Positions 32,841-61,736 of a DNA stretch of 64,000 bases are shown here, one piece after another. The position numbers and the translations under genes were made by a program. Each line of letters begins with the position of its first letter. The first letter of the stretch is position 1. Source of the stretch: Bdellovibrio sp. ZAP7 (GTDB lineage: Bacteria; Bdellovibrionota; FAC87; UBA2466); the NCBI GenBank assembly GCA_945878405.1, contig CAMCTJ010000007.1, forward strand, positions 74,779-138,778, read 5' to 3'. Under the pieces are notes generated by a model that was not told where the DNA came from, made no database searches, and saw only the letters and a list, made by a program, of their open reading frames with translations.

Positions 32841-33162
32841 GGGCTTTTCCTTAAGCAAAACCCAATCCAAATCTAGACAGCCGTAAACTCGATAAGCAGG
32901 TGTCTAACTTTTTTGGGACTACACCAGGAAGATTAAAAAACCACAATGAGAGCAGCCTCTTAGAATGTCTAATTCCTATACACCATTAAGTTCCTACAAA
33001 TTCCAATGCACAAACGAGGGCTTAGCCAAAAGGTACGGCTTTACTTTAGGCGGTTTTTTAATATCCTAGAAGATATCCCAAGGAGCGCTGCGAGGCACCT
33101 TCTGCCCTAGGCTTGGAATTTATAACGGCGCTCAATCCAATAAAATTTTTAAGGAGCCAGAC

Positions 33163-45194: not shown

Positions 45195-45656
45195 ATGCGA
45201 CGGTTTAATGCAAAAGATAAGAAAGTAACTTTTCCAGTGGCTCTAGTGGTGAGTCGCTTTAATGAAGAAGTCACTTCAAAACTTCTGGAAGGAGCTCATG
45301 CCCGTCTTCAGGAGCTGGGGTTTGACGAAGGGCAAATCACAGTGGTGGATGTACCCGGGGCAGTTGAGATTCCCCTCGCCTTGCAGCGTCTCGCAGGACT
45401 CAAAGAGTTTGATGCTTTGATTGCCTTGGGAGCTGTCATTCGCGGCGAGACGAGCCACTATGATTATGTTTGCAATCTGGTAAGCCAAGGTTGCCAGGAG
45501 ATAAGTCTACAATTCAAATTACCCGTGATTTTCGGAGTGCTCACAACGGAAAATGAGGAACAGGCCTTTGACCGATGTGGGGGAAAACACGGCCACAAAG
45601 GGAAAGATGCGGTAGATGCCGCTTGTGAGATGGTGGCTCTTCTTCGTTCATTGTGA
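45195..45656 (+). CDS. ribH: 6,7-dimethyl-8-ribityllumazine synthase
   Basis: 153 aa. 'FPVALVVSRFNEEVT', 'GAVEIPLA', 'ALGAVIRGETSHYDYV'. Confidence 0.9.
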   Translation: MRRFNAKDKKVTFPVALVVSRFNEEVTSKLLEGAHARLQELGFDEGQITVVDVPGAVEIPLALQRLAGLKEFDALIALGAVIRGETSHYDYVCNLVSQGCQEISLQFKLPVIFGVLTTENEEQAFDRCGGKHGHKGKDAVDAACEMVALLRSL

Positions 45657-45670
45657 AGAAATCTTCACAA
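45651..45670. repeat. 20-bp 8-4-8 palindrome TTGTGAAGaaatCTTCACAA (copy 1), overlapping the ribH stop codon
   Basis: Perfect 8-bp inverted arms. Two further copies at 46084 and 50422, all followed by ...T(n)TCT. Confidence 0.7.
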
Positions 45671-45750
45671 TCTCTGCAAAAACGCATGCGTGAGGCCCCG
45701 TAGATTCGGGCAGGGAGCCTATGTTAAGATGTTTGTATAAGGTGGTACGT

Positions 45751-46083
45751 ATGCGGTTAAGTCTCTCAAGGAAAGCTCTGCGTGGTTTTCTCTGCGCTGT
45801 GGTTGGATTAAACCTAGTTGCTTGCAACGCAACTAAATCATCGTCAGTCAGTTCTCCTTCAGTAATCATTGGCGGGAGTAGCTCTACAAATTCCCAAACG
45901 AGTAGTAGTTCCCAAAGTTCTTCTAGTTCAGGTAGCGGCTCTTCCAGTAATACTCCAGCAGTTGCGAGTGTGGCTCCTGCTTCTCAGGCTCTTCCTCCAC
46001 TCACAGTCTCTGGAATAAAAGTTTCATCCGTCTATTCTGGAATTGAAGCTAGCGGAGTTACGTACAACGGCATGTCAGACTGA
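45751..46083 (+). CDS. Small Ser-rich hypothetical lipoprotein bracketed by palindrome copies 1 and 2
   Basis: ORF 45721-46083. The internal Met gives 'MRLSLSRKALRGFLCAVVGLNLVAC' (lipobox LVAC). The rest is poly-Ser 'SSSTNSQTSSSSQSSSSSGSGSSS'. Confidence 0.35.
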   Translation: MRLSLSRKALRGFLCAVVGLNLVACNATKSSSVSSPSVIIGGSSSTNSQTSSSSQSSSSSGSGSSSNTPAVASVAPASQALPPLTVSGIKVSSVYSGIEASGVTYNGMSD

Positions 46084-46103: not shown

Positions 46104-46154
46104 TGTCTTTATAATCTCTTACGCCTAAGAGCACATTGATTGAAGTATTGAAGC

Positions 46155-49174: not shown

Positions 49175-50310
49175 ACCATCTTCCCCTTGGTTTGGAGTGA
49201 AGACTTTAAGAGCTCAAACAGCCGATTTCCCAATTGCCCCCATTCGTAACTAGCAAGTTCTTTGGAGTCGGGGTGGCTCCATTTATCTTGGTCCATTAAT
49301 CGATTTCTAAAAAGCTCGAGCGGGGCGATATGAAGTCCCTTTAGATTCTGGTTAAATCCCCGAACTCCAAAGGGAGTAGTGAGAACAGCGAGCCCATTTC
49401 CCAAACATTCTATGAGCTTTACATTACTTCCGGAACCCGAACAAACGGGGTTCAGCGCCACGTCACTTTCCTTAAAAAACGGGAATAAATGATTCTGAAC
49501 ACCGCAGGAAATGATGTTTTCCGGAAGAGACTCTGATAATTGAACATTTCCAACAACGAGTAATGACCATCGATGTTTTATTTCTGGATGAACAAAAAGA
49601 TGGGCGAGGGCTTGCAACCCCCTTTGATTGTGAATTGAGTCGCTAGCAACATACAACGCAATACGGTGGTTTTCAGCAATGCCCCATGCTTTTTTAAACT
49701 TTGGGGTGCTCTCTCTCGAATTGAGATGTTCTGTTGAGGTGTTGTGAAATCCATTGGGGAGGCTCTGTATCAATTTTCCGGGCCTTAGTTTTTCAAAAAT
49801 AAGTTTATCTTCTTCTGAAACACAAACGACTAAATCTGCTTCTTTAATTGCTCTTTGTTCATTTCTTTTTAAAAGTGCAACTGCCCGAGGTGAAAAACCG
49901 TCGTGATACATGGCTTCGTGGTTATGTGCTGAGAGCACTTTGACTTTACCTGTGACACGCTTTGCAATTTGCCAGAGAAAGGGAGACTCAGAAATGACGA
50001 TATCAAAAGTTTCTTTTAAAGGGCGTGGAAGCGGCAGAAAAGTATTGAGACTGCTGGTAAGTGAATAAGAGGGGAAACCCAAACGTGAACTCAGGCCATC
50101 TAACCATTGTATTTGATTTTGTGACTCATAATGGCTACAGCGAGGAACAAGCTCTTGGGATTCAAGAGGTGAGAGCCTGGGTGAGATAAAAGACCAAACG
50201 GTGACTTGAGCCCCCTGATGGGCCAATTGCTCTGCCAAACTACGAATTCGGGTCACCGCTCCATTGAAATTATTGATAAGACGATGGTGAGTGAGAACCA
50301 GAACCTTCAT
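49171..50310 (-). CDS. Glycosyltransferase family 1 (GT4-type)
   Basis: 379 aa. 'MKVLVLTHHRLINNFNGAVTRIRSLAEQL' and C-terminal GT-B donor region. Confidence 0.65.
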   Translation of the reverse strand: MKVLVLTHHRLINNFNGAVTRIRSLAEQLAHQGAQVTVWSFISPRLSPLESQELVPRCSHYESQNQIQWLDGLSSRLGFPSYSLTSSLNTFLPLPRPLKETFDIVISESPFLWQIAKRVTGKVKVLSAHNHEAMYHDGFSPRAVALLKRNEQRAIKEADLVVCVSEEDKLIFEKLRPGKLIQSLPNGFHNTSTEHLNSRESTPKFKKAWGIAENHRIALYVASDSIHNQRGLQALAHLFVHPEIKHRWSLLVVGNVQLSESLPENIISCGVQNHLFPFFKESDVALNPVCSGSGSNVKLIECLGNGLAVLTTPFGVRGFNQNLKGLHIAPLELFRNRLMDQDKWSHPDSKELASYEWGQLGNRLFELLKSSLQTKGKMV

Positions 50311-50421
50311 GAAAGCCTATTTCAAGTCGTAAAACATAAAAAGTAAAGTTTGATATATTGGATGCCCATCACCCATGATCTCAGATTAAAAAAGTGAGCG
50401 GTCTTGGTTAGCCCCAATCAA

Positions 50422-50441
50422 TTGTGAAGATATCTTCACAA
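50422..50441. repeat. 20-bp palindrome TTGTGAAGatatCTTCACAA (copy 3), in the divergent intergenic region about 180 nt upstream of the giant ORF
   Basis: Same 8-bp arms as copies 1 and 2. Sits between the GT cluster start (50310, minus strand) and the giant gene start (50621, plus strand). Confidence 0.7.
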
Positions 50442-50620
50442 TTTCTCCACAATGTTCAAGCTGAGCCCCCAATAATTGCGTCAAGTTAAAATGATACCCT
50501 GAAAGGTAAGGCGGAACGTATGTGTATTTGGAAACCACATTTAGCTTCGATGAGGAATCTTGCGCCACGCGTAAACATCAAGAGTAAAAGGAAAAAAACC
50601 GAAAAGGAGCGTGAAACCAA

Positions 50621-53600
50621 GTGAAACGCTTCCTTCCATTTCATGCTGTCCTTTTATTCTTCGCGGTTTGCTTTGCTTCTTTTGCAGAAGAAAAAGGTCG
50701 GCTGAGTGCGAGTGATTTGGCGCCTGGTGCATCGGATGGTTTCGTCTTTAGTAATTCCGCAACTCCAGATACTCAGTGCGATGAGGGCAGTGGGGGTGAC
50801 TGCTGCGATGGAACTCTTCAAGAAACGTTTGCCGGGGTAACGAAATTCACAACAAGTTACTGCAAAGGCCGATATGCCGGAAAAGCAAGCTCCACTCGTT
50901 ACGGAATTCGGTTTGATACGTTTCACGCTTTTCGAAGTATCCTCAACGAAAATCAGTTAGTACTTGTGAATTCGAATGCTGGATGCACGAGCGGCGACTG
51001 CTGCCCCACCGGCGGAAGTAAGACCTATAACTGGCTCCTAGTAAGAGCGAGACCTTTTGATAATTACAGCTCGCCGATGGATATGTCGCTGGATACGACT
51101 TACGTTGGGGGAACCATCACCTATGACCATTCGCAAACTGTAAAGTGGTCCGGATCTTCAAAATTTAGTTTAAATGCCCTAGATGCTGAAACGAAGACTA
51201 ACTCCTCTGCTTATGGAGCCCGGCTTTTTGGAACTTCTACCTGCAGCGCGGGAGAATTTAAAGCAAGCGCAGTCACAGATTTTACTGCCGCCAATAGGCC
51301 TCTTGGAAATTATGGGTACTGGCTCTTTGGTAAGAACGTAGCTTTCTACCGACAGGTAAGTGCAGATCCTGTCATTGCCGTTGCTTTTCCAAGGCCAGCG
51401 CAGAGTCTGAGTTCTTCTGGAGTAATGGCTAGTAAGAACAAACAAGTTTTTACTGGAAATTATACCGGCTTCACGACGAGGGGAGTTCAGGTTCAAAGAA
51501 ATGTCATGCTGATTCCTGATGTCGCGGGAACAACTTTTACGATTTCGGAAGTAGCAGATCCCTCCAATCCCTTCTCAGTCAGCACTCTGGGGACTTTAGC
51601 TTGCACGAATTTAGATGAGCCGAGCCAAGGTTTCTGCCGAGGCACCCTGACCCTGACTGCAGTTCCTGGATTTTCAGGAAAAGCCACTTGCATGATGGCT
51701 TACGATATCGGTAATCGGGATCTTGTTTTTTGTAGCGCGCAGAATCCCTCCGCTGATAGCAATCACCAACGAGCGCTCGTCACCATTGCGGCAGTTTCAT
51801 CGCACAAGAGCGTTCTTGCGATGACTGCGTCGCCAGTACACTTAGATGCCAATACCTCCAGTGGGCAAATGTGTGCAACCGTGGAAAATATGACGTCGCG
51901 AGCAGTCGACACATTAACGCTTACTGGAAACTTAAGTGGTGACTTCTCGGCGGTTTCTCTCTCAGGTTCTGTCACAGCGCCGTTCAGTGGCCTTACTGGT
52001 TCAGTGTCAGCTTGTGGCACTTCTTTGCCAGCTTTTTCAAAATGTAAATTGTGTTCGAATGTTACTTTAACGACTCAAAAAGTAAGTGCCCACGCTTTAA
52101 CCCTGACTTTTGGAGATACACCGAGTTCGACAAAAAGCATGTCAGACACAGCGGTTGCGACTCGTGGGGTTTCGAACCTTCAATATGAAGTGGGGAAAGT
52201 AACCCAGAACAAGACTCCCTCGGTTAAAGCCGTCTTTGCCAATGGCACTACCCAAAACATTGATGCAATTAAGGAAAAGCTACAGTGTTCAGGAGTTTGT
52301 ACTTCAGCCACTGGAACCCGATCGCTTGCCTATACCTTGGAAGGCCTTGAGAGCGCTCCCGCAGTGGGCGATGTGCTCGTAAGCACTGAAGAAGAGCTTT
52401 GTTACAACGAAGAAGACGACGACAACGACGGAACCACCGACTGCCAAGATAACGACTGCGATTCCGAAAGAGCAGATATCAGTCACACCGATATTCTATG
52501 TAATTATAATAGCGAGCGAGATTGTGCAGACTCTTTTGATAATGATCGAGATGGGAATACCGATTGTGATGATGGAGATTGTGCCCTTGCATGTAATGTT
52601 TGGGAAACCGCTTGTAACAATAGTCTCGACGATGATTCTGACGGAAACACAGATTGTGCCGATTCAGATTGCAACGGACAAGTAAATGCTGACTTTAGAT
52701 ACTGTGGTCTCGAGACTCACTCCTATGGTGGGTGTGTGCTCGATGGAGTTGACGATGACAGCGACGGTTATACCGATTGCGCCGATCCGGATTGTTACGG
52801 CGGTTATGTTGGTTGGGGACCCTATGGAGGAACTTGTGACTCTGGAACTGAAACTAATTGCAGCGATGGATACGATTTCGACGGCGATGGTTTAACTGAC
52901 GCCAATGATCCAGATTGTGTGGTCTGCCTTGATTCTGACGGCGATACGTTTGGTGACGGTTGCTCTGCTGGCTCCGATTGCGATGATAACTTCAGCGACG
53001 CTTCCAACAATTGCTCCGACAACGTGGTTTTAGATTTGCGTTTCGATACAGATACGAGCGATTCCTCGAACTATCATCACGCGGTTGGAGCTAATGGAAG
53101 CCCCGCTATTTCCACGAGCAACGCGAAGTTTGGTGGAGGGAGTGCAAACTTTAATGGTAACGGCGACAGAATCGATATTTCCTCAAGCACAGATTTTGAT
53201 CTGGAAGACGGGGACTACACTATTGAGTTCTGGACTTTTGTACGAAGCGTAGCAGGGTCAGATGCTGCTAGATTGTTTACTTTAGAAAATAACGATGAGG
53301 CGTGGGGAATAATTCTTGCCAACGATGGTAGCAACAGTCTTTACGTGAATCATTATGGAATTGGTGAGGGTTTTGAAGTCAGTGGCGCACTCAACGGGAA
53401 ATTGAACCAGTGGGTGCATCTGGCCTTGGTGAAGAACGGCACAACTAGAACTCTTTATATTGATGGGGTAGCTGGAGGCTCGACCAACTCAAGAGTGTTG
53501 CCGGCTAATGCTGCGCAATTATCAATTGGTGGCAGTACCATTTGGTATCCTTATACACAGTTTGACGGTCTTATCGACGAACTGAAAATCACCAAAGGCT

Positions 53601-56600
53601 ATGCACGCTACACCACAAACTTCACACCTCCCACTTGCGCATCGATGAGCGAATCCGATGCCGATAGCGATGGTATCTGTAATAGCGCGGATACTGAAAG
53701 CTGCAGTGATTCGATTGATAACAACGGTAATGGCCAGACGGATGAAGAATGTTCTTCTTGCAACAGTAGCGATTCCTCCTCGGCAATTTGTAACCAAACT
53801 GGCACTTGCTGGAATCAAAGCGGTTGTCAGTGTGGAGTCTATGATTCAGTTAGCTACGGGCAATCCTGTACGATGGGCGGTGGCGGATCAACCGAAAACT
53901 GTTCTGATTCATTAGATAATGATTCCGATGCTTCAACCGATTGCCAAGATGCGGATTGTGATGGGGTGTCAGGCGGTAGCGGTATCTGTCACAACAATTC
54001 TGAAACTTGTAGTGATAGCTTTGATAATAATGGCAATGGCCAGACAGATGAAAATTGTTATCCCTGCATGGACAACGACGGCGATGGATATGGTTATTAT
54101 TGTGCGATCGGTGAAGATTGCGACGATTGGGCTAATTGGATAAACCCCGGTGCTTCAGAAATCTGGAATGGGTACGATGACAACTGTAACGGCCAGGCCG
54201 ATGAAGGACTTGGCAATCCCTTTGACTGGGACGGAGATGGGTGGCTATCTTACATGGGAGATTGGTTTGATTGCAATGATGCCGATGGGTCCATAAACCC
54301 CGGTGCTTCCGAAACCTGCAGCGACTCAGTCGACAACAACTGCGATGGCCAGACAGATGAAAATTGTTATCCCTGCATGGACTACGACGGTGACGGGTAT
54401 GGTTACTACTGTGTTCCCGGCGAAGATTGTCAGTGGAATATGGGAGAGGGGAATTCCGCTATTCACCCCGGAGCTGCAGATGACCAAAGCGATGGTACCG
54501 ACAATGATTGCGACGGTCAGATCGATGAAGATTATACAGTTCCGTGCACAGATTCGGACACTGATGGCGTGTGCAGTGGATCTGACTGTGACGACAGCAA
54601 CGCAATCTTCAGCACAGATTGCAGCAGCAACGTGGTTTTAGATTTGCATTTTAATAGCGACTTCAGTGATTCTTCGGGTCACAATCACAATGGGACTCCA
54701 AATGGAAATGCGGAAATCAGCTCTGATGTTGCCAAGTTCGGGGGAGGCAGTGCGCATTTTGATGGAAGTTCTTGGTTAACAGTAACGGCGTCTTCAGCTC
54801 TCGCTGTGGGAACGGGTGATTTTACCTTGGAAGCCTGGGCTTATCCGACACAAGTTAATGACTTTAGCGATTTGGCTGCCGTACTAGATACACGGCCCTA
54901 TGGCGCGGGAACTGGCTTACTGATTTGGTTGGATTCTGCTTCTGGAAAATGGGTAGGGTATACCTCTACAAACGGAAATGAGGATCAACTTGTTATTAGT
55001 TCCCCTACAACAGCAACCCTCAATGCGTGGACTCATTTAGCATTGGTGCGTTCCGGAACAAGTCTTAGGTTCTTTGTAAATGGAGAACTTGCCGGAACCG
55101 AAACTTTAAATGCTAACTGGAATTTTACTCAGGACACTACGGCACCGGGTTTTGTGGGAACTGCAGCCGATGCCCCTGGATACTTCCGCAACTTCTATGG
55201 CTATATCGATTCAGTAAAAATCACCAAAGGCGCAGCGCTCTACACAACCACCTTCACGCCCGCTACTTGCGCATCGATGAGCGAATCTGATGTCGATAGC
55301 GATGGCATCTGTGATAGCGCGGATACTGAAAGCTGCAGTGATTCAATTGATAACGATGGCGATAGTCAGACAGATGAAGAATGTTCTTCTTGCAACAGTA
55401 GCGATTCCTCCTCGGCAATTTGTAACCAAACTGGCACTTGCTGGAATCAAAGCGGTTGTCAGTGTGGAGTCTTTGATTCAGTTAGCTACGGGCAATCCTG
55501 TACGATGGGCGGTGGCGGATCAACCGAAAACTGTTCTGATTCAGTAGATAATGATTCCGATGCTTCAACCGATTGCCAAGATGCGGATTGTGATGGGGTG
55601 TCAGGCGGTAGCGGTATCTGTCACTACAGTTCAGAAACGTGCAGTGATAGCTTTGATAATAATGGCAATGGTCAAACAGATGAGAACTGCAATTCTGACG
55701 TAAGCGGCGGCGATCCGTACTTTGATGATGTGAGAGTGCTTGTTCATGCGGACGAAAACATTACGAATCATGCAAACGGGGGAACGCCCACAGTAACTTT
55801 CGTTGGCGGAGCGAATTACTCGACCTCCGACAAGAAGTTTGGATCAGCTTCCGCGCAGTTCTCACCGCAGATAACCCAGTACTGCGATGGGTGGTGGGGT
55901 TGTTATGACCAGTTAGTAGTTCCCAATTATTTAAAGATAAACGACACCTCAAGAACGATTCCTGCGAATTACACTGCTGAGTTCTGGGTAAAACCCGATT
56001 CCGATTGGAGTGGCGCAGTCTCAAGAAGATTATATCAACGAGGCGTTAGCGATATGGGGATGTATGGTATCGATGTTTATTACAATAACAATCGAATCTA
56101 TTTTAGTTTTTACAATAGCAATTATTACTATGATGGGTCTGGTGAGGGGGGGTGCGATCAATCGGGTAGCACTTATGGAGATGTTGGTACTTTGAGTGCG
56201 AACACTTGGTACCACGTAGCGATTGTGAGAGAGGGTAGTGCGATCAGAATTTATTTCAACGGAAACCGAATTGGGACGGGCACACTAAGCGCTAATTCCT
56301 ACACGTATTGGGGCACAATTCCCTCATGTACTGCCACAGAAGCTATCACACTTAGCGATTGGGGAAATGTAAACGAAGGTTTCGGAGTATCTTTTGACTA
56401 CGGTGACAATATTTACGATAACGTCACCGCTAAGTTTGACGAAATCCGAATCAGCAACAGAGCTCGTTACTCAGATACAAGCTTTACTCTTCCCACTTCG
56501 CCGTATCCCAATACCAAGCAAGCGGTAGCTCCCGAAATCAGTATTTCGCCCTCGAGCTACACGTTAACAGCTGGCACAGCGATGACAGCGATTGTTCCAA

Positions 56601-59299
56601 GCCTCACCATGGGCACGATTGATTCTTGCGTTGTATCGCCTTCGCTCCCCGCAGGATTGTCGTTAAATAGTTCCACTTGCGGTATTTCTGGAACTCCGAC
56701 TTATGGTGGAGGCTCGCAGTCTTATACGATTACTCCTTCGAACTCGGTCGGTACTGGTAATAGTGTCACCGTATCATTGACCATTAACGGTGCGGATGCT
56801 GGCGGCAATTATTACACCGGTGGTTCATTGGCTAGTGGAGTTGTTAATAACGCCGCGGGGCTTTCTGTCGAGTTCAGTAATTCAAATGATTTCACATCAA
56901 ACTTCGCAATCACAACACCAGCTGACGGAACGGCAACTGTCACGAACGGACAACTAGAATTTAGAAACCCAAATCCCGACAGACTTCCTGGTTATCATTT
57001 CAAGAACCCCGTATCTGCTTCGGCTATCGAAATCAAATTTACTCATCCAAGCCTCTATCCAAATTGGCATTGCCCAACTATTGCATTCTCCAATGGACTG
57101 GGTACTTTCACTGTTGCTTATGATCCGAAATATTCGGATGGCGGTTGGTGCGATGCAAACTCAATCAAGACTTCATTTGGCAGCTTCCCCATGGGTCATT
57201 TAGCCGGTGGCCAAGCTCATATCATTAAGCTTGAGGTCAATACACAAACACAAACTGCTACCCTCACGATTGATGGAACCTCACAGACCTATACGAATGC
57301 GATGTTTGCACAAAAACTCACCAACTTTGAACATGTACCAAATTATTCGTGGTACTGCGGCAGTTACACTACTTACATTGATTATGTCAGAGCCTACGAT
57401 TATGGTTGCTACTCAAATGGCTCGGCTGACAGTAGTTTCAACGCAAACGGAACGGGTTTCTGCAGCGGCACTTACTACATCGGTGGAGTAGCCTACGCAG
57501 GATTAGATTCCAACGGAAATGGAACGTCTGGTGGATTGCTTTACTCAAGTGGTTCACTCTTTACCGGAATGTACTCGGATTGGAACTGCTACGTTAATGG
57601 CGCCAATACTGGTGGCGTCGTGAGTGGTACCGGCTGGTGTAGTGCGGATAGTGTTTATTACGTAAGCTACAGCGGAACGAGTCTTCCCTCCAGCGGCACT
57701 GGAAACTACATGGGCAACTATTACAGTAGCGGCACATTGGTAGGCACAACGGCTTCGATATCGATTATGAGTCAGCCGTCCGATCAAACGGCTTCAAGCG
57801 GCAGCGCTACTTTCAGTATTGGTGCAAACATCACGGCTCCCGCTTCACTGAGTTACCAATGGCAGAAACAAGAAAGCGGCACGGGAAGCTTTAGCGATAT
57901 CAGCGGGGCAACGAGTGATTCACTTGTGCTTTCAAATCTGACCTATTCTTCAGATAATGGAGATGTGTATCAAGTCGTGTTGAGCGGAACACAAGGGGCC
58001 TCGAGTATTACCAGTAGCTCTGCAACGTTGAGTGTTCCTGTTTACGCTCCCGATGTACCGACTTCTGTAAGTGGAGCCGCTGGCAATGCCGAAGTGGAAG
58101 TAACGTGGACTGCCCCTAGCAATAATGGTGGAAGCGCGATTACGGATTATGTGATTCAGATTTCATCTGATAGCGGAAGCTCTTGGACAACTTACAGTGA
58201 TAGCGCTTCTACTTCAACGAGTGCTTCAGTAACCGGATTAACCAATGGCACAAGCTATGTCTTCCGAGTTGCCGCAGTAAATATTGGAGGTACAGGAGAT
58301 TTCAGTCTTGCTTCGACTTCAGTCTCTCCGAGTGCCAATGCAGGGGATCCTTATTTCAGTGACGTAAGAGTACTTGTGAACGCGGACGAAAACATTACGA
58401 ATCATGCAAACGGGGGAACGCCCACAGTAACTTTCGTTGGCGGAGCGAATTACTCGACGTCCGACAAGAAGTTTGGATCAGCTTCTGCACAGCTCTCACC
58501 GCAGATAACCCAGTACTGCGATGGTTGGGGTTGTTATGACCAGTTAGTAGTTCCCAATTATTTAAAGATAAACGACACCTCAAGAACGATTCCTGCAAAT
58601 TACACTGCTGAGTTCTGGGTAAAACCCGATTCCGATTGGAGTGGCGAAACCTCAAGAATGTTATATCAAGGGGGCGTGTTTGATCCTGGAGTAAGCGGGC
58701 TTCAGCTTTATCATTACAACGGTCGTCTGTACCTCAGTCTGAATAGCTATAACTATGGCTATTATTCGGGTCAGGGCGACTGGAGTTGCAATCATTCTGG
58801 TTACAACTATGCGGATGTGGGTACTTTGAGCGCGAGTACTTGGCACCACATAGCGATTGTGAGAGAGGGCAATGCACTCAGACTTTATTTCAACGGAAAC
58901 CGAGTCGGTAATTCAACGATTAGCGCCAGCTTCGAATCTTATGATGGCTCTTCGCCTGCCGGTGGATGTACAGCTTCGGGCGCTATCTCTTTGAGTAGTT
59001 GGGGTGAAACAAAGGCGGTCTTCGGCGTGGAGTCGGACTACAGTGATTATGTTTTCAGCAACGTCACCGCTAAGTTTGACGAAATCCGAATCAGCAACAG
59101 AGCTCGTTACTCCAGCGCTACTTATACTGTTCCAACCGCAGCATTCCCAAAAAGTGCAGCGCCTGTCTCTTGCAATAGTGAGACTTATGCGGGAGATACT
59201 TGTAACCAGGTTGGAACCTGTTACAGCCCTACGGGCTGTTCGTGTGGCATTTACAGTACTATCTCCTATGGAGATACCTGCTCCAATCCCGGCCAGTAA
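50621..59299 (+). CDS. Giant secreted multidomain surface protein (2892 aa)
   Basis: Domains in order: signal peptide (MKRFLPFHAVLLFFAVCFASFA), TSP3-like Asp/Cys Ca-binding repeats, MopE-like Cys/Asp repeats, four concanavalin-A/LamG-like modules, a He_PIG-type Ig domain, an Ig-like domain, FN3, and a C-terminal Cys-rich knot. It is a single uninterrupted 8.7-kb ORF, and all large opposite-strand ORFs lie inside it. Domain motifs include 'DNDxDGxTDCxDxDC', 'INPGASExC.D.VDNNCDGQTDE', 'DFTIEAW...WHHVAIVREG..LRLYFNG', 'LPAGLSLNSSTCGISGTP' and the FN3 'VEVTWTAPSNNGGSAITDYVIQ'. Confidence 0.85.
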   Translation: MKRFLPFHAVLLFFAVCFASFAEEKGRLSASDLAPGASDGFVFSNSATPDTQCDEGSGGDCCDGTLQETFAGVTKFTTSYCKGRYAGKASSTRYGIRFDTFHAFRSILNENQLVLVNSNAGCTSGDCCPTGGSKTYNWLLVRARPFDNYSSPMDMSLDTTYVGGTITYDHSQTVKWSGSSKFSLNALDAETKTNSSAYGARLFGTSTCSAGEFKASAVTDFTAANRPLGNYGYWLFGKNVAFYRQVSADPVIAVAFPRPAQSLSSSGVMASKNKQVFTGNYTGFTTRGVQVQRNVMLIPDVAGTTFTISEVADPSNPFSVSTLGTLACTNLDEPSQGFCRGTLTLTAVPGFSGKATCMMAYDIGNRDLVFCSAQNPSADSNHQRALVTIAAVSSHKSVLAMTASPVHLDANTSSGQMCATVENMTSRAVDTLTLTGNLSGDFSAVSLSGSVTAPFSGLTGSVSACGTSLPAFSKCKLCSNVTLTTQKVSAHALTLTFGDTPSSTKSMSDTAVATRGVSNLQYEVGKVTQNKTPSVKAVFANGTTQNIDAIKEKLQCSGVCTSATGTRSLAYTLEGLESAPAVGDVLVSTEEELCYNEEDDDNDGTTDCQDNDCDSERADISHTDILCNYNSERDCADSFDNDRDGNTDCDDGDCALACNVWETACNNSLDDDSDGNTDCADSDCNGQVNADFRYCGLETHSYGGCVLDGVDDDSDGYTDCADPDCYGGYVGWGPYGGTCDSGTETNCSDGYDFDGDGLTDANDPDCVVCLDSDGDTFGDGCSAGSDCDDNFSDASNNCSDNVVLDLRFDTDTSDSSNYHHAVGANGSPAISTSNAKFGGGSANFNGNGDRIDISSSTDFDLEDGDYTIEFWTFVRSVAGSDAARLFTLENNDEAWGIILANDGSNSLYVNHYGIGEGFEVSGALNGKLNQWVHLALVKNGTTRTLYIDGVAGGSTNSRVLPANAAQLSIGGSTIWYPYTQFDGLIDELKITKGYARYTTNFTPPTCASMSESDADSDGICNSADTESCSDSIDNNGNGQTDEECSSCNSSDSSSAICNQTGTCWNQSGCQCGVYDSVSYGQSCTMGGGGSTENCSDSLDNDSDASTDCQDADCDGVSGGSGICHNNSETCSDSFDNNGNGQTDENCYPCMDNDGDGYGYYCAIGEDCDDWANWINPGASEIWNGYDDNCNGQADEGLGNPFDWDGDGWLSYMGDWFDCNDADGSINPGASETCSDSVDNNCDGQTDENCYPCMDYDGDGYGYYCVPGEDCQWNMGEGNSAIHPGAADDQSDGTDNDCDGQIDEDYTVPCTDSDTDGVCSGSDCDDSNAIFSTDCSSNVVLDLHFNSDFSDSSGHNHNGTPNGNAEISSDVAKFGGGSAHFDGSSWLTVTASSALAVGTGDFTLEAWAYPTQVNDFSDLAAVLDTRPYGAGTGLLIWLDSASGKWVGYTSTNGNEDQLVISSPTTATLNAWTHLALVRSGTSLRFFVNGELAGTETLNANWNFTQDTTAPGFVGTAADAPGYFRNFYGYIDSVKITKGAALYTTTFTPATCASMSESDVDSDGICDSADTESCSDSIDNDGDSQTDEECSSCNSSDSSSAICNQTGTCWNQSGCQCGVFDSVSYGQSCTMGGGGSTENCSDSVDNDSDASTDCQDADCDGVSGGSGICHYSSETCSDSFDNNGNGQTDENCNSDVSGGDPYFDDVRVLVHADENITNHANGGTPTVTFVGGANYSTSDKKFGSASAQFSPQITQYCDGWWGCYDQLVVPNYLKINDTSRTIPANYTAEFWVKPDSDWSGAVSRRLYQRGVSDMGMYGIDVYYNNNRIYFSFYNSNYYYDGSGEGGCDQSGSTYGDVGTLSANTWYHVAIVREGSAIRIYFNGNRIGTGTLSANSYTYWGTIPSCTATEAITLSDWGNVNEGFGVSFDYGDNIYDNVTAKFDEIRISNRARYSDTSFTLPTSPYPNTKQAVAPEISISPSSYTLTAGTAMTAIVPSLTMGTIDSCVVSPSLPAGLSLNSSTCGISGTPTYGGGSQSYTITPSNSVGTGNSVTVSLTINGADAGGNYYTGGSLASGVVNNAAGLSVEFSNSNDFTSNFAITTPADGTATVTNGQLEFRNPNPDRLPGYHFKNPVSASAIEIKFTHPSLYPNWHCPTIAFSNGLGTFTVAYDPKYSDGGWCDANSIKTSFGSFPMGHLAGGQAHIIKLEVNTQTQTATLTIDGTSQTYTNAMFAQKLTNFEHVPNYSWYCGSYTTYIDYVRAYDYGCYSNGSADSSFNANGTGFCSGTYYIGGVAYAGLDSNGNGTSGGLLYSSGSLFTGMYSDWNCYVNGANTGGVVSGTGWCSADSVYYVSYSGTSLPSSGTGNYMGNYYSSGTLVGTTASISIMSQPSDQTASSGSATFSIGANITAPASLSYQWQKQESGTGSFSDISGATSDSLVLSNLTYSSDNGDVYQVVLSGTQGASSITSSSATLSVPVYAPDVPTSVSGAAGNAEVEVTWTAPSNNGGSAITDYVIQISSDSGSSWTTYSDSASTSTSASVTGLTNGTSYVFRVAAVNIGGTGDFSLASTSVSPSANAGDPYFSDVRVLVNADENITNHANGGTPTVTFVGGANYSTSDKKFGSASAQLSPQITQYCDGWGCYDQLVVPNYLKINDTSRTIPANYTAEFWVKPDSDWSGETSRMLYQGGVFDPGVSGLQLYHYNGRLYLSLNSYNYGYYSGQGDWSCNHSGYNYADVGTLSASTWHHIAIVREGNALRLYFNGNRVGNSTISASFESYDGSSPAGGCTASGAISLSSWGETKAVFGVESDYSDYVFSNVTAKFDEIRISNRARYSSATYTVPTAAFPKSAAPVSCNSETYAGDTCNQVGTCYSPTGCSCGIYSTISYGDTCSNPGQ
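53581..54061 (+). repeat. Intragenic direct repeat A, copy 1 (~480 bp; second copy at 55211-55690, ~95% identical with >100-bp exact runs)
   Basis: Both copies encode 'TCASMSESD.DSDGIC.SADTESCSDSIDN.G..QTDEECSSCNSSDSSSAICNQTGTCWNQSGCQCGV.DSVSYGQSCTMGGGGSTENCSDS.DNDSDASTDCQDADCDGVSGGSGICH..SETCSDSFDNNGNGQTDENC'. Confidence 0.85.
55211..55690 (+). repeat. Intragenic direct repeat A, copy 2
   Basis: See copy 1. The two copies are about 1.63 kb apart. Confidence 0.85.
55701..56480 (+). repeat. Intragenic direct repeat B, copy 1 (~780 bp LamG-like module; second copy at 58341-59115)
   Basis: The first ~300 bp and last ~60 bp are near-identical between copies: 'GDPYF.DVRVLV.ADENITNHANGGTPTVTFVGGANYSTSDKKFGSASAQ.SPQITQYCDGW' and '..NVTAKFDEIRISNRARYS'. 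The middle is diverged but homologous. A 3-nt indel distinguishes WWG from WG. Confidence 0.8.
58341..59115 (+). repeat. Intragenic direct repeat B, copy 2
   Basis: See copy 1. The two copies are about 2.64 kb apart. Confidence 0.8.
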
Positions 59300-59317
59300 T
59301 TCCGCAAGTACAGATAC

Positions 59318-60805
59318 TCAGTGTGTCCGCGTCCACAAACAAAGATCCTGAGCAAACCCTTCCTTGAGGTAATTGCGTTCCACAGTGCTCAGTTTTGTAA
59401 AAAAGAAGTCATCAATTGCAACGTAGAGGATGTTTTCTTCCTCAAGGCGATTCTTTTCAAACAAGCGACTCTCCTGTGCTCTACTGCCAGACACAGGAAA
59501 CCCGGGGAGAACCTGATCCACTTCATCCATGCTTCGGGGAGACCGCAGCCATTGCGCTTGGGAGTCTTCGTTGAACACATAAGCAGGGCATCGACTAAAC
59601 CAAACGTAAAAGACAGGATCGGTTCTCCTAAGCTTGTATAAGGCTGTGCTCAAAACTTCAATTTGTTCTCTTCTCTTTTGGGTTTCGTTTCTCATTTCTA
59701 AGGGCAGTGCCAAAGCGGTATTGAGGAGTGCTACCGCTAAAAGCCCCCCCAGGACGACGGGTTCAAATTTTCCCCAGGGAATCTCAAGTAGTATCTGAAA
59801 AACAAAAACCACCATCAGGGGGAGAATCAGCAACAGAGCATATTCGTGAATGGGGCTCAGGAGAAACAATCCACAGCTGAGAGCTGCAATTAACAATAAG
59901 TATCTCAGAGGTGTTCGCGTTTTTTTATTGAGGATTGCCGAGACGATACTCCCCACGAAGAGGGCCAGAAACAACAACAAAAGAACAGGGTCGCTCTTCC
60001 AGAGCTTAAAAAACAAGTCGGCAACGACTTCCGTTTTTTCAACCACTCGTTTTGAGATGAGGTTGAGGTTCATCAAGAACATATGATCAATCGCAGCGTA
60101 AAGGGCTCCTTGAATAGCCAGCACAAGCCCGATAATACCCAAAGAGATTATCTCTCCCCAAACCAGTGAAAACCGTCTTTTGATTGGTACCTTAAATCCT
60201 AAAGCCACTTGATCAGCTATTAGGAATCCTAAATTTAAAGGCAAAAACTTAGGGTGAAACCCAAGCGCAAGCCCCAAACACATTCCGGCGAGCAGTCTTT
60301 TTTCCCGAGATAGAAGAAATAGAAAAAGGACACATAAGAAACCAACCGTGATATCCGGGCGTGTCTGAAATGCAGTTCCTTGAACTATCCTGAGACTCAG
60401 AAAGAGGGCCCCGGCCACAGTCCCCTTGGCTATCTTTCGAGAGCCCTGAGTTAACGTCGAAACTGTGATGCCTACCATCATGGCAGTTACTCCTGCCATC
60501 AGAAGGGGAAACAAACGTAAATAAGTCAGGGTTTCAGCAGACTCAACCGCTCCGGGCTTTATCCAGAGCAACAAAGCATTCAGCCACGCAAAGACAGGTC
60601 CGTGGTGTTCAAAAAAGTCTTTGAAAATAATTTTGCCTCTAAAAACATTCCAAGCAATATGCGTGTGCTGGAGGTCGTCCTGGCCAAAAGAATAGGCAAA
60701 GGCTCTCGCTCCCAAGGCATATAAGTGGTACCCGAACACCAAGACAGATCCGAGGATCAAAAGTACTCCCCACCACTCAACCGTTTTTTTCTTTTTAGAA
60801 TCCAT
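59318..60805 (-). CDS. Polytopic membrane glycosyltransferase of the PMT/ArnT (GT39/GT83-like) family (candidate)
   Basis: ORF 59318-60868. Likely start 'MDSKKKK'. About 12 TM helices. The first loop 'YHLYALGARAFAYSFGQDDLQH' resembles the 'LRLYGLG..DE' loop of GT39/83 enzymes. Overlaps the upstream GT2 by 11 nt. Confidence 0.5.
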   Translation of the reverse strand: MDSKKKKTVEWWGVLLILGSVLVFGYHLYALGARAFAYSFGQDDLQHTHIAWNVFRGKIIFKDFFEHHGPVFAWLNALLLWIKPGAVESAETLTYLRLFPLLMAGVTAMMVGITVSTLTQGSRKIAKGTVAGALFLSLRIVQGTAFQTRPDITVGFLCVLFLFLLSREKRLLAGMCLGLALGFHPKFLPLNLGFLIADQVALGFKVPIKRRFSLVWGEIISLGIIGLVLAIQGALYAAIDHMFLMNLNLISKRVVEKTEVVADLFFKLWKSDPVLLLLFLALFVGSIVSAILNKKTRTPLRYLLLIAALSCGLFLLSPIHEYALLLILPLMVVFVFQILLEIPWGKFEPVVLGGLLAVALLNTALALPLEMRNETQKRREQIEVLSTALYKLRRTDPVFYVWFSRCPAYVFNEDSQAQWLRSPRSMDEVDQVLPGFPVSGSRAQESRLFEKNRLEEENILYVAIDDFFFTKLSTVERNYLKEGFAQDLCLWTRTH

Positions 60806-61736
60806 GAGAGGAAAGTCGATAACGAATGTCTTCTGCGAGTTTTCTATTCGCTGCCAGGACTTCAGCAATCAGTGCTAACAATAAAGTGCCAAACCCAAAG
60901 AGTAATAACACGGCAGCTAAGATCAAACTCTGAATATGGCCTGCATTTTCGTCTCCGCTTTGGAGGTAGTAGTACAAAAAGCGCAATCCAAGCACCGTTC
61001 CTAGTACTAAAAAAACGCTCGCAATCGAGCTGAGAAACTTAAACGGTCGGTAGATAAGAAAGATGCGAAAAAGGGTGATGATACTTTGTCTGATGTAGTT
61101 GGGAATGCTTTTAACCAACCGGGAGGGCCGTAACTCACCATTGGTTTGAATAGGCACTGAGGCAATTGCCATGTTCAACTGACCCGCTTGAATGATTGTT
61201 TCTAGAGTATAAGTATAATCATTGTAAACCATGAGGTGACTCGCCATGGTTTTACTAAAAGCCCGAAATCCACTGGGGGCATCTGGAATGTCTGTGCCGC
61301 TCACAACGCGAACCACCCAACTCCCCAGCCTTTGAAGTTTTTTCTTCAGAAACGAGAAGTGGGCGATGTTATCAATGGGTCGAGCCCCCACGACTAAGTC
61401 CGCTTTTCGTTTAATAATTGGTTCTGTTAGCTGAGGGATATAAGAAGCATCATACTGATTATCAGCATCCGTATTTAAAATAACATCCGCGCCTTCTCTT
61501 AAGCAGGCTGAGATGCCCGTCATAAAAGCTCGAGCAAGTCCCTGGTTGCGAATATGGCGTACGACATGATCTACGCCATGCGCTTTAGCAACCGCCGAAG
61601 TACCGTCTGTGCTTCCATCGTCAACTACCAACCACTCAACCGTCTCAAATCCTGGGACCTCTCGCGGAAGTGCAGCCAAAGCTAAGGGCAGACTTTTTTC
61701 TTCATTAAAACAAGGTATTTGAATAATGAGTTTCAA
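60795..61736 (-). CDS. GT2 polyprenol-phosphate sugar synthase (DPM1/ArnC-like) with C-terminal TM helices
   Basis: 'KLIIQIPCFNEEKS', 'VVDDGSTDGT', 'DADNQYD'. Two C-terminal TM helices. A probable TTG start at 61736 avoids the head-to-head overlap of the ATG at 61802 with the methyltransferase gene. Confidence 0.65.
   Translation of the reverse strand: MKLIIQIPCFNEEKSLPLALAALPREVPGFETVEWLVVDDGSTDGTSAVAKAHGVDHVVRHIRNQGLARAFMTGISACLREGADVILNTDADNQYDASYIPQLTEPIIKRKADLVVGARPIDNIAHFSFLKKKLQRLGSWVVRVVSGTDIPDAPSGFRAFSKTMASHLMVYNDYTYTLETIIQAGQLNMAIASVPIQTNGELRPSRLVKSIPNYIRQSIITLFRIFLIYRPFKFLSSIASVFLVLGTVLGLRFLYYYLQSGDENAGHIQSLILAAVLLLFGFGTLLLALIAEVLAANRKLAEDIRYRLSSHGF

What the first reader, a model, noticed from the sequence alone, without database searches (positions are those of the whole stretch)
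50621..59299. 2892-aa secreted giant protein with a lectin-rich, Ca/metal-binding multidomain architecture
This single 8.7-kb ORF has a clean signal peptide. After an N-terminal ~590-aa Cys-containing beta-rich region, it carries the following in order:
- About 8 thrombospondin-type-3-like repeats (DxDxDGxxDCxDxDC).
- MopE-like repeats (..INPGAsExCxDxxDNnCDGQtDE..), a motif I associate with secreted proteins of Myxococcota/Bdellovibrionota.
- Four concanavalin-A/LamG-like modules (…TIEFW…WVHLALV..G…LYIDG…).
- A He_PIG Ig domain (LPAGLSLNSSTCGISGTP), a second Ig-like domain and an FN3.
- A C-terminal 'CN..CNQ.GTC....GC.CG.Y' knot, which also occurs twice internally.
Its composition is extremely Ser/Thr/Asn/Asp/Gly-rich. 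This looks like a large surface adhesin or lectin. In a predatory-type bacterium it could act as a prey- or substrate-recognition protein. The exact domain combination is not one I can assign to any described family.
Basis: partly seen in the sequence, partly recalled or inferred. Interest (0 to 1): 0.8.

Follow-up and report, generated by a model that had tools for sequence, protein, structure and literature searches.

The report
Mosaic giant surface protein, new head family
This is a real 2892-residue exported protein whose sugar-binding and calcium-binding modules are ordinary, but it belongs to an undescribed family that shares an N-terminal "head", a small partner lipoprotein gene and a DNA palindrome, and closely related strains carry a sugar-enzyme gene in its place.

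Summary
- Confirmed above Pfam cut-offs: four Laminin_G_3, three MopE motifs, He_PIG and fn3.
- The eight acidic Cys repeats match NCBIfam NF033662, not Pfam TSP_3.
- The 6-Cys "knot" occurs three times and is only a sub-threshold EGF-like match.

The new findings lie elsewhere.
- **Head family.** Residues 24-590 have no Pfam or NCBIfam match. They define a small family: 51 cluster representatives among 1.84 billion proteins, nearly always placed right after a signal peptide. The tails that follow are interchangeable.
- **Shared 5' module.** Family genes carry a TTGTGAAG-N4-CTTCACAA palindrome. About 80 nt downstream sits either a small lipoprotein gene ending V-x-Y/F-x-G-φ-S/T/N-D/N/E or a 34-codon remnant uORF.
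- **Strain-variable cassette.** In strains with 95-98% identical flanks, a 602-aa epimerase/GT2 gene occupies the same slot.

My reading is a cell-surface, Ca2+/disulfide-stiffened, multivalent glycan-binding adhesin. The proposed tether through its head to the lipoprotein is inferred, not shown. I rate it a new variant of a known kind, of moderate interest.

The parts
50621..59299 (+). Giant gene: 2892 codons plus stop, GTG start
   Evidence: The orthologous start is ATG in other copies.
50621..50686 (+). Sec-type signal peptide, aa 1-22, with putative cleavage SFA|EE
   Evidence: Read by eye. Equivalent signal peptides occur in all full-length family members. It is not a lipobox, and the Cys at position 17 is not conserved in P0094.
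50690..51799 (+). Head, beta-barrel-rich part (aa 24-~393), containing the most conserved motif GTLxCTxLNSPxxGFCxGTLTL..GKAVC
   Evidence: - No Pfam or NCBIfam match.
- 51 family representatives.
- All-beta AlphaFold2 model, pLDDT 85.
- Invariant Cys and Gly columns.
51800..52390 (+). Head, two Ig-like domains (aa ~394-590): an ASH/VesB-type followed by a degenerate Big_2-like
   Evidence: - Foldseek matches to VesB and HYDIN/ASH.
- Big_2 in 15 of 27 relatives and HYDIN_VesB Ig in 4 of 27.
52391..53020 (+). First array of acidic double-disulfide repeats (C..D..DND.DG.TDC.D.DC), aa 591-800
   Evidence: NF033662 matches 8 stretches across the protein, the best at 662-687. Motif positions are listed.
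53156..53590 (+). Laminin_G_3 module 1 (aa 846-990)
   Evidence: E 1.9e-20.
53756..53881 (+). 6-Cys EGF-like knot, copy 1 (aa 1046-1087)
   Evidence: Self-similarity to copies 2 and 3. The weak EGF_2 match was obtained on copy 3.
53888..54535 (+). Acidic repeats followed by three MopE-type motifs (aa ~1090-1305)
   Evidence: (PF11617, 3 stretches, 96 bits).
54764..55231 (+). Laminin_G_3 module 2 (aa 1382-1537)
   Evidence: best stretch.
55184..55690 (+). Internal duplicate of aa 978-1146: end of LamG, knot copy 2 (aa 1590-1631) and acidic repeats (aa 1522-1690)
   Evidence: 83-95% protein identity. The DNA repeat is 90% identical.
55706..56536 (+). Laminin_G_3 module 3, long form (aa 1696-1972)
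   Evidence: 4 stretches. It is a paralogue of module 4.
56543..56788 (+). He_PIG Ig-like domain (aa 1975-2056)
56798..57436 (+). Unassigned module X (aa 2060-2272)
   Evidence: No Pfam match. 91% identical to the equivalent module in P0001. Local hhalign shows no relation to the LamG modules.
57437..57772 (+). Gly/Ser/Tyr-rich repeat region (aa 2273-2384)
57773..58054 (+). Ig-like domain (aa 2385-2478)
   Evidence: Similar to the repeats of P0002, which has Ig_3 (PF13927) among its precomputed domains (sequences), and to titin Ig-FN3 pairs.
58067..58318 (+). Fibronectin type III domain (aa 2483-2566)
58340..59170 (+). Laminin_G_3 module 4, long form (aa 2574-2850)
59168..59293 (+). 6-Cys EGF-like knot, copy 3, at the C-terminus (aa 2850-2891)
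   Evidence: EGF_2 E 0.005, below the cut-off.
50422..50441 (.). Perfect palindrome TTGTGAAG-ATAT-CTTCACAA, 79 nt upstream of the uORF start
   Evidence: Three sites in the window against 0.09 expected. It is present upstream of head-family genes in 10 loci, including distant ones. The spacing is constant.
50520..50624 (+). 34-codon uORF with its own Shine-Dalgarno sequence (AAGGCGG); its TGA stop overlaps the GTG start of the giant
   Evidence: The frame is kept in L001, L003 and L006-L008, including an in-frame indel. In L002 it is fused in frame to the giant. In distant relatives the small lipoprotein gene occupies this position.
45751..46083 (+). Small lipoprotein gene (110 aa): lipobox LVAC, Ser-rich linker, C-terminus GVTYNGMSD
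   Evidence: -.
- The same kind of gene lies directly upstream of head-family genes in L001, L009, L010, L016, L018 and L019.
- The C-terminal motif occurs in 10 of 3349 six-frame segments, and all 10 are these genes.
- Indels in the linker are in frame.
- The source pipelines did not call this gene.
45651..45670 (.). Palindrome copy 80 nt upstream of the lipoprotein start, overlapping the ribH stop codon
46084..46103 (.). Palindrome copy immediately after the lipoprotein stop codon, as in L001 where the giant follows directly
50352..59325 (+). Strain-variable cassette: giant gene with its 5' region
   Evidence: Flanks are 95-98% identical to L012 and L014 up to 50351 and from 59326. There the slot holds a 1.87-kb segment carrying a 602-aa epimerase/GT2 gene.

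Best explanation
**What it is.** The ORF encodes a Sec-exported, disulfide-rich, calcium-binding mosaic protein displayed on or near the cell surface. It acts as a multivalent glycan-binding adhesin.

**What defines its family.** The family is defined by a ~570-residue N-terminal head that directly follows the signal peptide, not by the lectin tail. The head is a beta-barrel-rich region followed by two Ig-like domains. Tails are interchangeable arrays. Here the tail holds acidic double-disulfide and MopE repeats, four LamG-type modules, He_PIG, Ig, FN3 and EGF-like knots.

**Proposed mechanism, with the status of each step.**
1. Export by Sec and oxidative folding in the periplasm. This is inferred from the signal peptide and the 112 Cys residues.
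2. The head is the cell-proximal end. It is held by a small outer-membrane lipoprotein encoded in the same 5' module, whose conserved C-terminal V-x-Y/F-x-G-φ-S/T/N-D/N/E strand docks onto the head. This is inferred from gene linkage only.
3. The Ca2+-loaded acidic repeats and the Ig/FN3 domains form an extended stalk. This is inferred from DxDxDG-type motifs and knowledge of those families.
4. The LamG_3 modules bind carbohydrates on a target, which could be prey, particles or algae. This is inferred from the family annotation.
5. A regulator binding the TGTGA-N8-TCACA palindrome sets expression. This is inferred from conservation.

**What is shown rather than inferred.** The gene is an accessory cassette inside an LPS/glycan-biosynthesis island. 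Its tail is reshuffled between paralogues and strains, which fits a surface-exposed product under diversifying selection.
For: - **Real gene with the stated domains:**
- **Head family:** phmmer finds 51 representatives, 30 of them at E<1e-30. In nearly all full-length members the match starts at residues ~30-60, after a signal peptide. The tails vary: Big_2 in 15 of 27, fn3 in 9, Laminin_G_3 in 5, plus NHL, kelch, DUF1554 and TSP_3.
- **Invariant head residues:** Cys, Gly, Pro, Phe and Asn, with no catalytic-type set.
- **No common C-terminal sorting signal** in the family. The giant has no RTX, T9SS-CTD or TPS-domain match.
- **Mosaic tails on conserved heads:** L001, L002 and two tandem genes in L003. 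Two tandem genes with near-identical heads (P0112 and its neighbour) lie in the same MAG as the window.
- **Lipoprotein partner:** directly upstream in 6 divergent loci and 4.5 kb upstream in the window. Its C-terminal motif is found nowhere else in 3349 segments.
- **Palindrome:** 3 sites against 0.09 expected, conserved in loci whose heads are only 45-51% identical, at a constant 75-80 nt from the start codon.
- **Cassette replacement** in sister strains. Contigs of three further strains break inside the gene.
- **Closest precedent:** Bdellovibrio MAT fibres. They have a signal peptide, an invariant N-terminal beta-rich domain thought to bind a predator surface element, swappable C-terminal tips, and glycan binding shown for one member (PMC10769870).
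Against: - There is no experimental or expression evidence of any kind.
- Surface localisation and the route across the outer membrane are unknown.
- The head-lipoprotein contact is a guess from synteny. Four of ten loci lack an adjacent lipoprotein gene (L002, the second gene of L003, L011, L017).
- In the window the lipoprotein gene is separated from the giant by four opposite-strand glycosyltransferase genes.
- The sugar specificity of the LamG_3 modules is unknown.
- Calcium binding is inferred from motifs only.
- The palindrome also lies just after upstream stop codons, so an RNA-hairpin role is not excluded.
Confidence: 0.5

Rival explanations
1. It is a variable, possibly glycosylated surface coat or shield protein. 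Its main role would be to change what phages and grazers see, not to bind a target. Neighbouring glycosyltransferases would modify it, including the GT-C-like membrane protein just downstream.
For: - It sits inside a glycan-biosynthesis island, with GT4, GT2 and Gly_transf_sug upstream and a GT-C-like gene and GT2 downstream.
- It is 22% Ser+Thr.
- It is swapped for a sugar-modifying enzyme gene in sister strains.
- The tail is reshuffled between strains.
Against: - Other family members have no glycosyltransferase neighbours.
- The GT87/GT-C match is below threshold (E 0.0016, 18.7 bits against 25).
- Four lectin-type modules are more easily explained by binding than by shielding.
- The two roles are not mutually exclusive.
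Confidence: 0.2
2. It is a freely secreted matrix or scavenging protein. It would cross-link exopolysaccharide or capture polysaccharide and metal ions away from the cell, with no anchoring role for the head.
For: There is a signal peptide but no recognisable membrane anchor or sorting signal. It has many Ca/metal-type motifs and lectin modules.
Against: The strictly N-terminal, conserved head, the linked lipoprotein gene and the MAT precedent all favour cell attachment. A free 300-kDa protein is costly for a planktonic freshwater bacterium, which is an inference.
Confidence: 0.15
3. The head is the effector, an enzyme or toxin, and the tail merely targets it.
For: The head is the only part conserved across the family.
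Against: - No hydrolase, toxin or other catalytic family matches.
- The invariant columns are Cys, Gly, Pro, Phe and Asn, and the nearly invariant ones add no His, Asp or Glu apart from a Glu at the signal-peptide cleavage site.
- The fold neighbours are binding barrels.
Confidence: 0.08
4. The ORF is an assembly chimera or a decaying pseudogene.
For: Repetitive modular genes are prone to misassembly. Contigs of three related strains end inside the gene.
Against: - The frame is uninterrupted over 8.7 kb.
- Two records carry the same ORF.
- Internal repeats have diverged by 5% or more.
- All junctions are reproduced in P0001 or in L001-L003, which come from other samples.
Confidence: 0.02

Closest known systems
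Bdellovibrio bacteriovorus MAT (mosaic adhesive trimer) fibre proteins (PMC10769870)
   Same: - A signal peptide followed directly by an invariant beta-rich N-terminal domain that has no PDB homologue and is thought to bind the producer's surface.
- Variable, swappable C-terminal binding modules.
- Many paralogues per genome.
- Glycan recognition shown for one member.
   Different: - The MAT N-terminal domain is about 130 aa, whereas this head is about 570 aa.
- MATs are trimeric beta-prism fibres, some with an S74 protease. Nothing of that kind was detected here.
- A linked lipoprotein gene and palindrome did not come up in the MAT passages I read (a term search).
- Sequence relatedness could not be tested, because no MAT sequences were at hand.
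NF033662 acidic double-disulfide repeat proteins, and PF11617 MopE-type 'putative metal-binding motif' proteins of Myxococcota and Bdellovibrionota
   Same: The repeats match both models above their cut-offs. They are acidic, Cys-bracketed D-x-D-x-D-G-like loops.
   Different: These are repeat families, not whole-protein families, so they say nothing about the head or the tail architecture. Copper binding as in MopE itself was not tested.
Thrombospondin type 3 repeats (PF02412)
   Same: The same general logic: D-rich calcium-binding loops stapled by disulfides.
   Different: Pfam TSP_3 does not match this protein. One distant family member does carry true TSP_3.
Giant Ca2+-dependent RTX adhesins exported by type 1 secretion (the LapA and MpIBP type)
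   Same: They are very large, modular and calcium-stiffened, carry sugar-binding modules, and are held at the cell surface by their N-terminal end.
   Different: Those proteins lack a Sec signal peptide and carry C-terminal RTX repeats and a T1SS signal. Here there is a Sec signal peptide and no RTX match.
TbpB, LbpB, HpuA and hemophilin (Slam / type XI substrates)
   Different: - The similarity is weak.
- The giant itself has no lipobox.
- In Slam substrates the barrel is C-terminal, to my knowledge.
- No Slam gene was seen nearby.
Two-partner secretion exoproteins (TpsA, for example FHA)
   Same: A Sec signal peptide, then a conserved N-terminal module, then a giant variable passenger.
   Different: There is no TPS/Haemagg_act domain and no TpsB transporter gene next to any family member examined.

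Membership tests
Laminin_G_3 (PF13385), ConA-like lectin/glucanase superfamily | Profile match above the gathering score | tested here: met
   196.8 bits against 27.6, in 4 stretches. Module 1 alone scores 73.9 bits.
Laminin_G_3 (PF13385), ConA-like lectin/glucanase superfamily | Carbohydrate or other ligand binding | not testable with these tools
   This needs glycan arrays or structures.
Cu-binding_MopE (PF11617) | Profile match above the gathering score | tested here: met
   61.2 bits for the whole protein and 96.2 bits for segment 1161-1340, with 3 stretches, against a cut-off of 27.
Cu-binding_MopE (PF11617) | Copper binding as in MopE of Methylococcus | not testable with these tools
   The Pfam entry itself is described only as a putative metal-binding motif.
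NF033662 acidic double-disulfide repeat | Repeat profile above the NCBIfam cut-off | tested here: met
   82.1 bits against 41, in 8 stretches. The motif is listed.
Thrombospondin type 3 repeat (PF02412) | Profile match | tested here: not met
   No match at E<=0.1 for the whole protein or E<=1 for segment 591-800.
He_PIG (PF05345) and fn3 (PF00041) | Profile match above the gathering score | tested here: met
   He_PIG 34.4 bits against 24. fn3 49.6 bits against 25. PDB FN3 and titin matches.
EGF-like domain (PF07974 EGF_2), proposed for the 'knot' | Profile match, and six Cys with the C-x-C signature | tested here: inconclusive
   17.6 bits against a cut-off of 22.1. The Cys spacing C-x9-C-x5-C-x5-C-x-C-x13-C is compatible by eye.
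MAT fibre superfamily (Bdellovibrio) | Signal peptide, then a conserved N-terminal beta-rich domain, then variable C-terminal modules, in many paralogues | tested here: met
   This concerns the organisation only.
MAT fibre superfamily (Bdellovibrio) | Homology of the N-terminal domain to the ~130-aa MAT domain | not testable with these tools
   No MAT N-terminal sequence or structure was available. To my knowledge the PDB entries cover C-terminal parts only.
MAT fibre superfamily (Bdellovibrio) | Trimeric intertwined beta-prism fibre, with or without an S74 chaperone-protease | not tested
   No S74 match in Pfam. Oligomeric state was not modelled.
T1SS RTX adhesins | No Sec signal peptide, with C-terminal RTX nonapeptide repeats and a secretion signal | tested here: not met
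   A Sec-type signal peptide is present and there is no HemolysinCabind match.
Two-partner secretion TpsA | N-terminal TPS (Haemagg_act) domain and an adjacent TpsB gene | tested here: not met
   No such Pfam match. No TpsB-type gene is in any examined neighbourhood.
T9SS cargo | C-terminal sorting domain | tested here: not met
   There is no CTD match. The C-terminus is a copy of an internal module. Family C-termini are unrelated to one another.
Slam-dependent surface lipoproteins (TbpB-like) | A lipobox on the protein itself, and barrel-plus-handle lobes | tested here: not met

The most novel reading that the evidence does not exclude
The small lipoprotein and the N-terminal head together would form a previously unrecognised two-component display system for diderm bacteria. 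A lipid-anchored tether with a conserved C-terminal strand would capture a universal head domain, in effect a TbpB-like surface lipoprotein split into two genes. Any mosaic tail could then be mounted on the cell surface, with paralogues co-regulated through one palindromic operator and tails exchanged as cassettes.
Probability: 0.25. Interest if true: 0.8.

Novelty: new variant of a known kind. Interest (0 to 1): 0.55.

Why it matters
Large mosaic surface proteins are how many uncultured aquatic and predatory bacteria touch their surroundings. How such proteins are held on a diderm surface without a known sorting signal is mostly unknown.

This locus offers a concrete and testable handle on that question:
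- a compact, well-modelled head domain shared by about 50 protein clusters;
- a co-inherited 70-125-aa lipoprotein with a sharply conserved C-terminal motif;
- a shared operator.

If the head-lipoprotein contact is real, it would explain the anchoring of a whole family. It might also inform the unsolved anchoring of Bdellovibrio MAT fibres.

The clean swap between the giant gene and an epimerase/GT2 gene, in strains that are otherwise 95-98% identical here, is also a neat natural example of surface-structure replacement within a glycan island.

Tried and rejected
- **Single-sequence AlphaFold2 of the head** gave pLDDT 33 and was useless. It was replaced by the run with a 31-sequence alignment.
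- **Foldseek against PDB and BFVD** returned only low-TM Ig, cadherin and HYDIN matches to the C-terminal Ig part of the head. The afdb50 library was not available.
- **Word-indexed homologue searches** were swamped by FN3 and Ig repeats. They found only P0001, and for the head only P0094 and P0095. The exhaustive phmmer search was needed.
- **Module X (aa 2060-2272)** was tested as a fifth ConA-like module. Local hhalign against the LamG modules gave no signal (E 0.26), so it is left unassigned.
- **Taxonomy from AhcY** was inconclusive. Bdellovibrionia MAGs scored 88-89% and betaproteobacteria 87-88%. Cluster look-ups gave only "Proteobacteria bacterium" or no name. Searches for LLD_334 and for "acidic double-disulfide repeat" in the literature found nothing.
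- **Glycosyltransferases as conserved partners** were rejected.
- **Sigma-70 promoter and terminator scans** of the gene region found no more sites than chance.
- **The first palindrome search** used the wrong spacer (N6) and found nothing relevant. It was corrected to N4.
- **Pfam scan of the small lipoproteins** found nothing.
Full report
**1. The observation**

The window holds a single open frame at 50621-59299 (+). It has 2892 codons and a GTG start. An AAGGAG Shine-Dalgarno sequence lies about 10 nt upstream. All related copies have ATG at the same position.

The product is 49% Ser, Gly, Thr, Asp and Asn, and it has 112 Cys. Its N-terminus, MKRFLPFHAVLLFFAVCFASFA|EE, looks like a Sec signal peptide. 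Every full-length relative has an equivalent one.

The same ORF is present in an ENA assembly (ERZ27280281, a 174.6-kb contig) and in NCBI GCA_964203895.1. Its internal DNA repeats are 63-95% identical (the longest pairs 90-95%), none identical. Its module junctions recur in proteins from other samples. It is therefore not an assembly artefact.

**2.

Pfam gives four families above their gathering scores:
- Laminin_G_3, four stretches, E 2.7e-58;
- Cu-binding_MopE, three stretches;
- He_PIG at residues 1975-2056;
- fn3 at residues 2483-2566.

The eight acidic Cys repeats match NCBIfam NF033662, the acidic double-disulfide repeat, at 82 bits. Pfam TSP_3 does not match. Fifteen D-x-[DN]-x-[DN]-[GAS]-x-x-D loops are present. 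From general knowledge these are of the DxDxDG calcium-binding type.

The 6-Cys knot occurs three times. It is at best a sub-threshold EGF-like module.

Recent internal duplications are evident. Residues 978-1146 resemble 1522-1690 at 83-95% identity, and 1696-1970 resemble 2574-2850.

Residues 2060-2272 and 2273-2384 remain unassigned. Residues 2385-2478 form an Ig-like domain.

**3. The family is defined by the head**

Residues 24-590 match nothing in Pfam or NCBIfam. An exhaustive phmmer search of 1.84 billion cluster representatives found 51 relatives, 30 of them at E<1e-30. In nearly all full-length members the match starts at residues ~30-60, after a signal peptide, and these proteins are mostly 1000-2000 aa long.

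The tails of these relatives differ. Big_2 occurs in 15 of 27, fn3 in 9 and Laminin_G_3 in 5, along with NHL, kelch and other propellers, DUF1554 and TSP_3. They share no C-terminal sorting signal.

The invariant columns are Cys, Gly, Pro, Phe and Asn. That pattern suggests a disulfide-bonded binding module and not an enzyme.

**4. Paralogues and mosaicism**

- In the Lake Lanier MAG LLD_334, two paralogues share the head at 88% and 77% identity, but FN3-type tails follow.
- On JGI contig L003, two giants lie in tandem, and both have the head.
- The MAG that contains the window also encodes P0112 and a tandem neighbour. Their heads are near-identical to each other and 29-33% identical to the window's head.
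- P0001 keeps the order LamG, He_PIG, X, Ig, FN3, LamG. It differs in having an extra MopE array, extra LamG and FN3 modules, and a different C-terminus.

**5. A conserved 5' module**

About 215 bp upstream of the gene is conserved among paralogues that sit in different genomic contexts. This region contains two elements.

The first is a perfect palindrome, TTGTGAAG-N4-CTTCACAA (TGTGA-N8-TCACA).
- It occurs three times in the window against 0.09 expected.
- It also lies upstream of family genes whose heads are only 45-51% identical, in L009 and L010.

The second is a Shine-Dalgarno sequence plus ATG, 75-80 nt downstream of the palindrome.
- In L001, L009, L010, L016, L018 and L019 this ATG opens a 72-125-aa lipoprotein gene. 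The lipoprotein has a lipobox, a low-complexity linker and a conserved C-terminus V-x-Y/F-x-G-φ-S/T/N-D/N/E. The gene ends at or overlaps the start of the giant.
- In the window lineage the same position holds a 34-codon uORF. Its stop overlaps the giant's start, and its frame is preserved across copies.

An intact lipoprotein gene lies 4.5 kb upstream at 45751-46083. It is flanked by the other two palindromes. The source pipelines did not call this gene.

The C-terminal motif occurs in 10 of 3349 six-frame segments of all loci, and all 10 are these lipoprotein genes. In-frame indels in the linker support a coding gene. Pfam has no model for it.

**6. Genomic setting**

The gene lies in an LPS/glycan island.
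- Upstream and divergent are GT4, GT2, Gly_transf_sug and a GT-B-like gene.
- Downstream are a multi-pass membrane protein with a sub-threshold GT87 (GT-C) match, a GT2 and a methyltransferase. Further on come WaaA and a heptosyltransferase.

These neighbours are not conserved around other family members.

In at least four sequenced contigs of sister strains (L012-L015), and in a fifth place listed without DNA, the slot between the GT4 gene and the GT-C-like gene holds a 602-aa epimerase/GT2 gene. For L012 and L014 the flanks are 95-98% identical to the window, and the breakpoints fall at window positions 50351 and 59326. Three other strains carry the giant, but their contigs end inside it.

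The giant is therefore an accessory cassette in a flexible surface-glycan island.

**7. Host**

The window encodes flagellar and LPS genes. Relatives are labelled "Proteobacteria bacterium". AhcY is closest to Bdellovibrionia and Bdellovibrionales MAGs, but only marginally closer than to betaproteobacteria. A predatory lifestyle is therefore plausible but unproven.

**8. Interpretation**

The best-supported reading is a Sec-exported, disulfide- and Ca2+-stabilised mosaic surface adhesin whose LamG modules bind glycans. I think the conserved head is the cell-proximal end.

Gene linkage suggests that the small lipoprotein holds the head through its conserved C-terminal strand. Only synteny supports this step, and four of ten loci lack an adjacent lipoprotein gene.

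The closest described analogue is the Bdellovibrio MAT fibre family. MAT proteins have a signal peptide, an invariant N-terminal domain thought to bind a surface element, and swappable glycan-binding tips (PMC10769870). Membership could not be tested, and the head here is four times larger.

Four rivals are listed with refutation tests: a glycosylated shield, a free matrix protein, an enzymatic head and an assembly artefact.

**9. Verdict**

The domains of the tail are ordinary. The combination of head family, lipoprotein, palindrome and cassette is not covered by the Pfam and NCBIfam libraries searched here. I did not find it in the few literature searches I made. I rate it a new variant of a known kind, with interest 0.55.

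Noticed in passing
window 33074-33140 (+), upstream of 33163-34563: An SAH riboswitch (Rfam RF01057, 51.8 bits against 37) lies directly upstream of the adenosylhomocysteinase gene.
   Followed up: no
window 59318-60868 (-): A multi-pass membrane protein lies immediately downstream of the giant. It has a sub-threshold match over the whole GT87 profile, which is GT-C fold (E 0.0016), and a QDD motif in the first loop. It could be a periplasmic-face glycosyltransferase. It is conserved in strains with and without the giant.
   Followed up: partly
window 45721-46083 (+); L004 5028-5249: The source pipelines did not call the small lipoprotein gene. They called a 73-aa antisense ORF instead. The lipoprotein ORF is conserved, with in-frame indels, in L001 and L006-L008.
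   Followed up: yes
L011 6832-7812 (same MAG as the window, contig CAXNOE010000005.1): A 326-aa polytopic membrane protein lies upstream of the P0112 paralogue and contains a GCSGIDG motif. By eye this resembles the exosortase/archaeosortase catalytic Cys motif. Pfam has no hit on record for it.
   Followed up: no
L016 9235-10065 and 12514-13250; L019 8090-9157: Radical SAM/SPASM genes lie next to two distant head-family genes, P0099 and P0109. This may be coincidence, or it may point to a maturation system.
   Followed up: no
L002 ~12200-13100: The tail of the LLD_334 paralogue contains, between FN3 domains, a segment that by eye looks like an FGE-sulfatase / C-type-lectin-like domain (..GFRCV..). 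It was not scanned.
   Followed up: no
window 30470-31672 (+): A tyrosine recombinase (Phage_integrase plus the SAM-like N-terminal domain) lies about 19 kb upstream of the giant. Whether it marks a mobile element was not examined.
   Followed up: no
window 36654-38717 (+): A 687-aa membrane protein is named thiol:disulfide isomerase/thioredoxin by JGI. It is possibly relevant to folding a protein with 112 Cys. No link was tested.
   Followed up: no
window 48201 compared with L012 15501-16029: Sister strains carry an extra ~0.5-kb segment between the GT2 and Gly_transf_sug genes, overlapping an additional opposite-strand GT2 ORF. To the left of window position 46150 their gene content differs entirely, with further glycosyltransferases where the window has the rib operon and the lipoprotein gene.
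   Followed up: partly
window 50001-60000 compared with the flanks: The giant gene has a higher G+C content (0.47-0.48) than the adjacent glycosyltransferase genes (0.43). This could reflect amino-acid composition or a foreign origin of the cassette.
   Followed up: no
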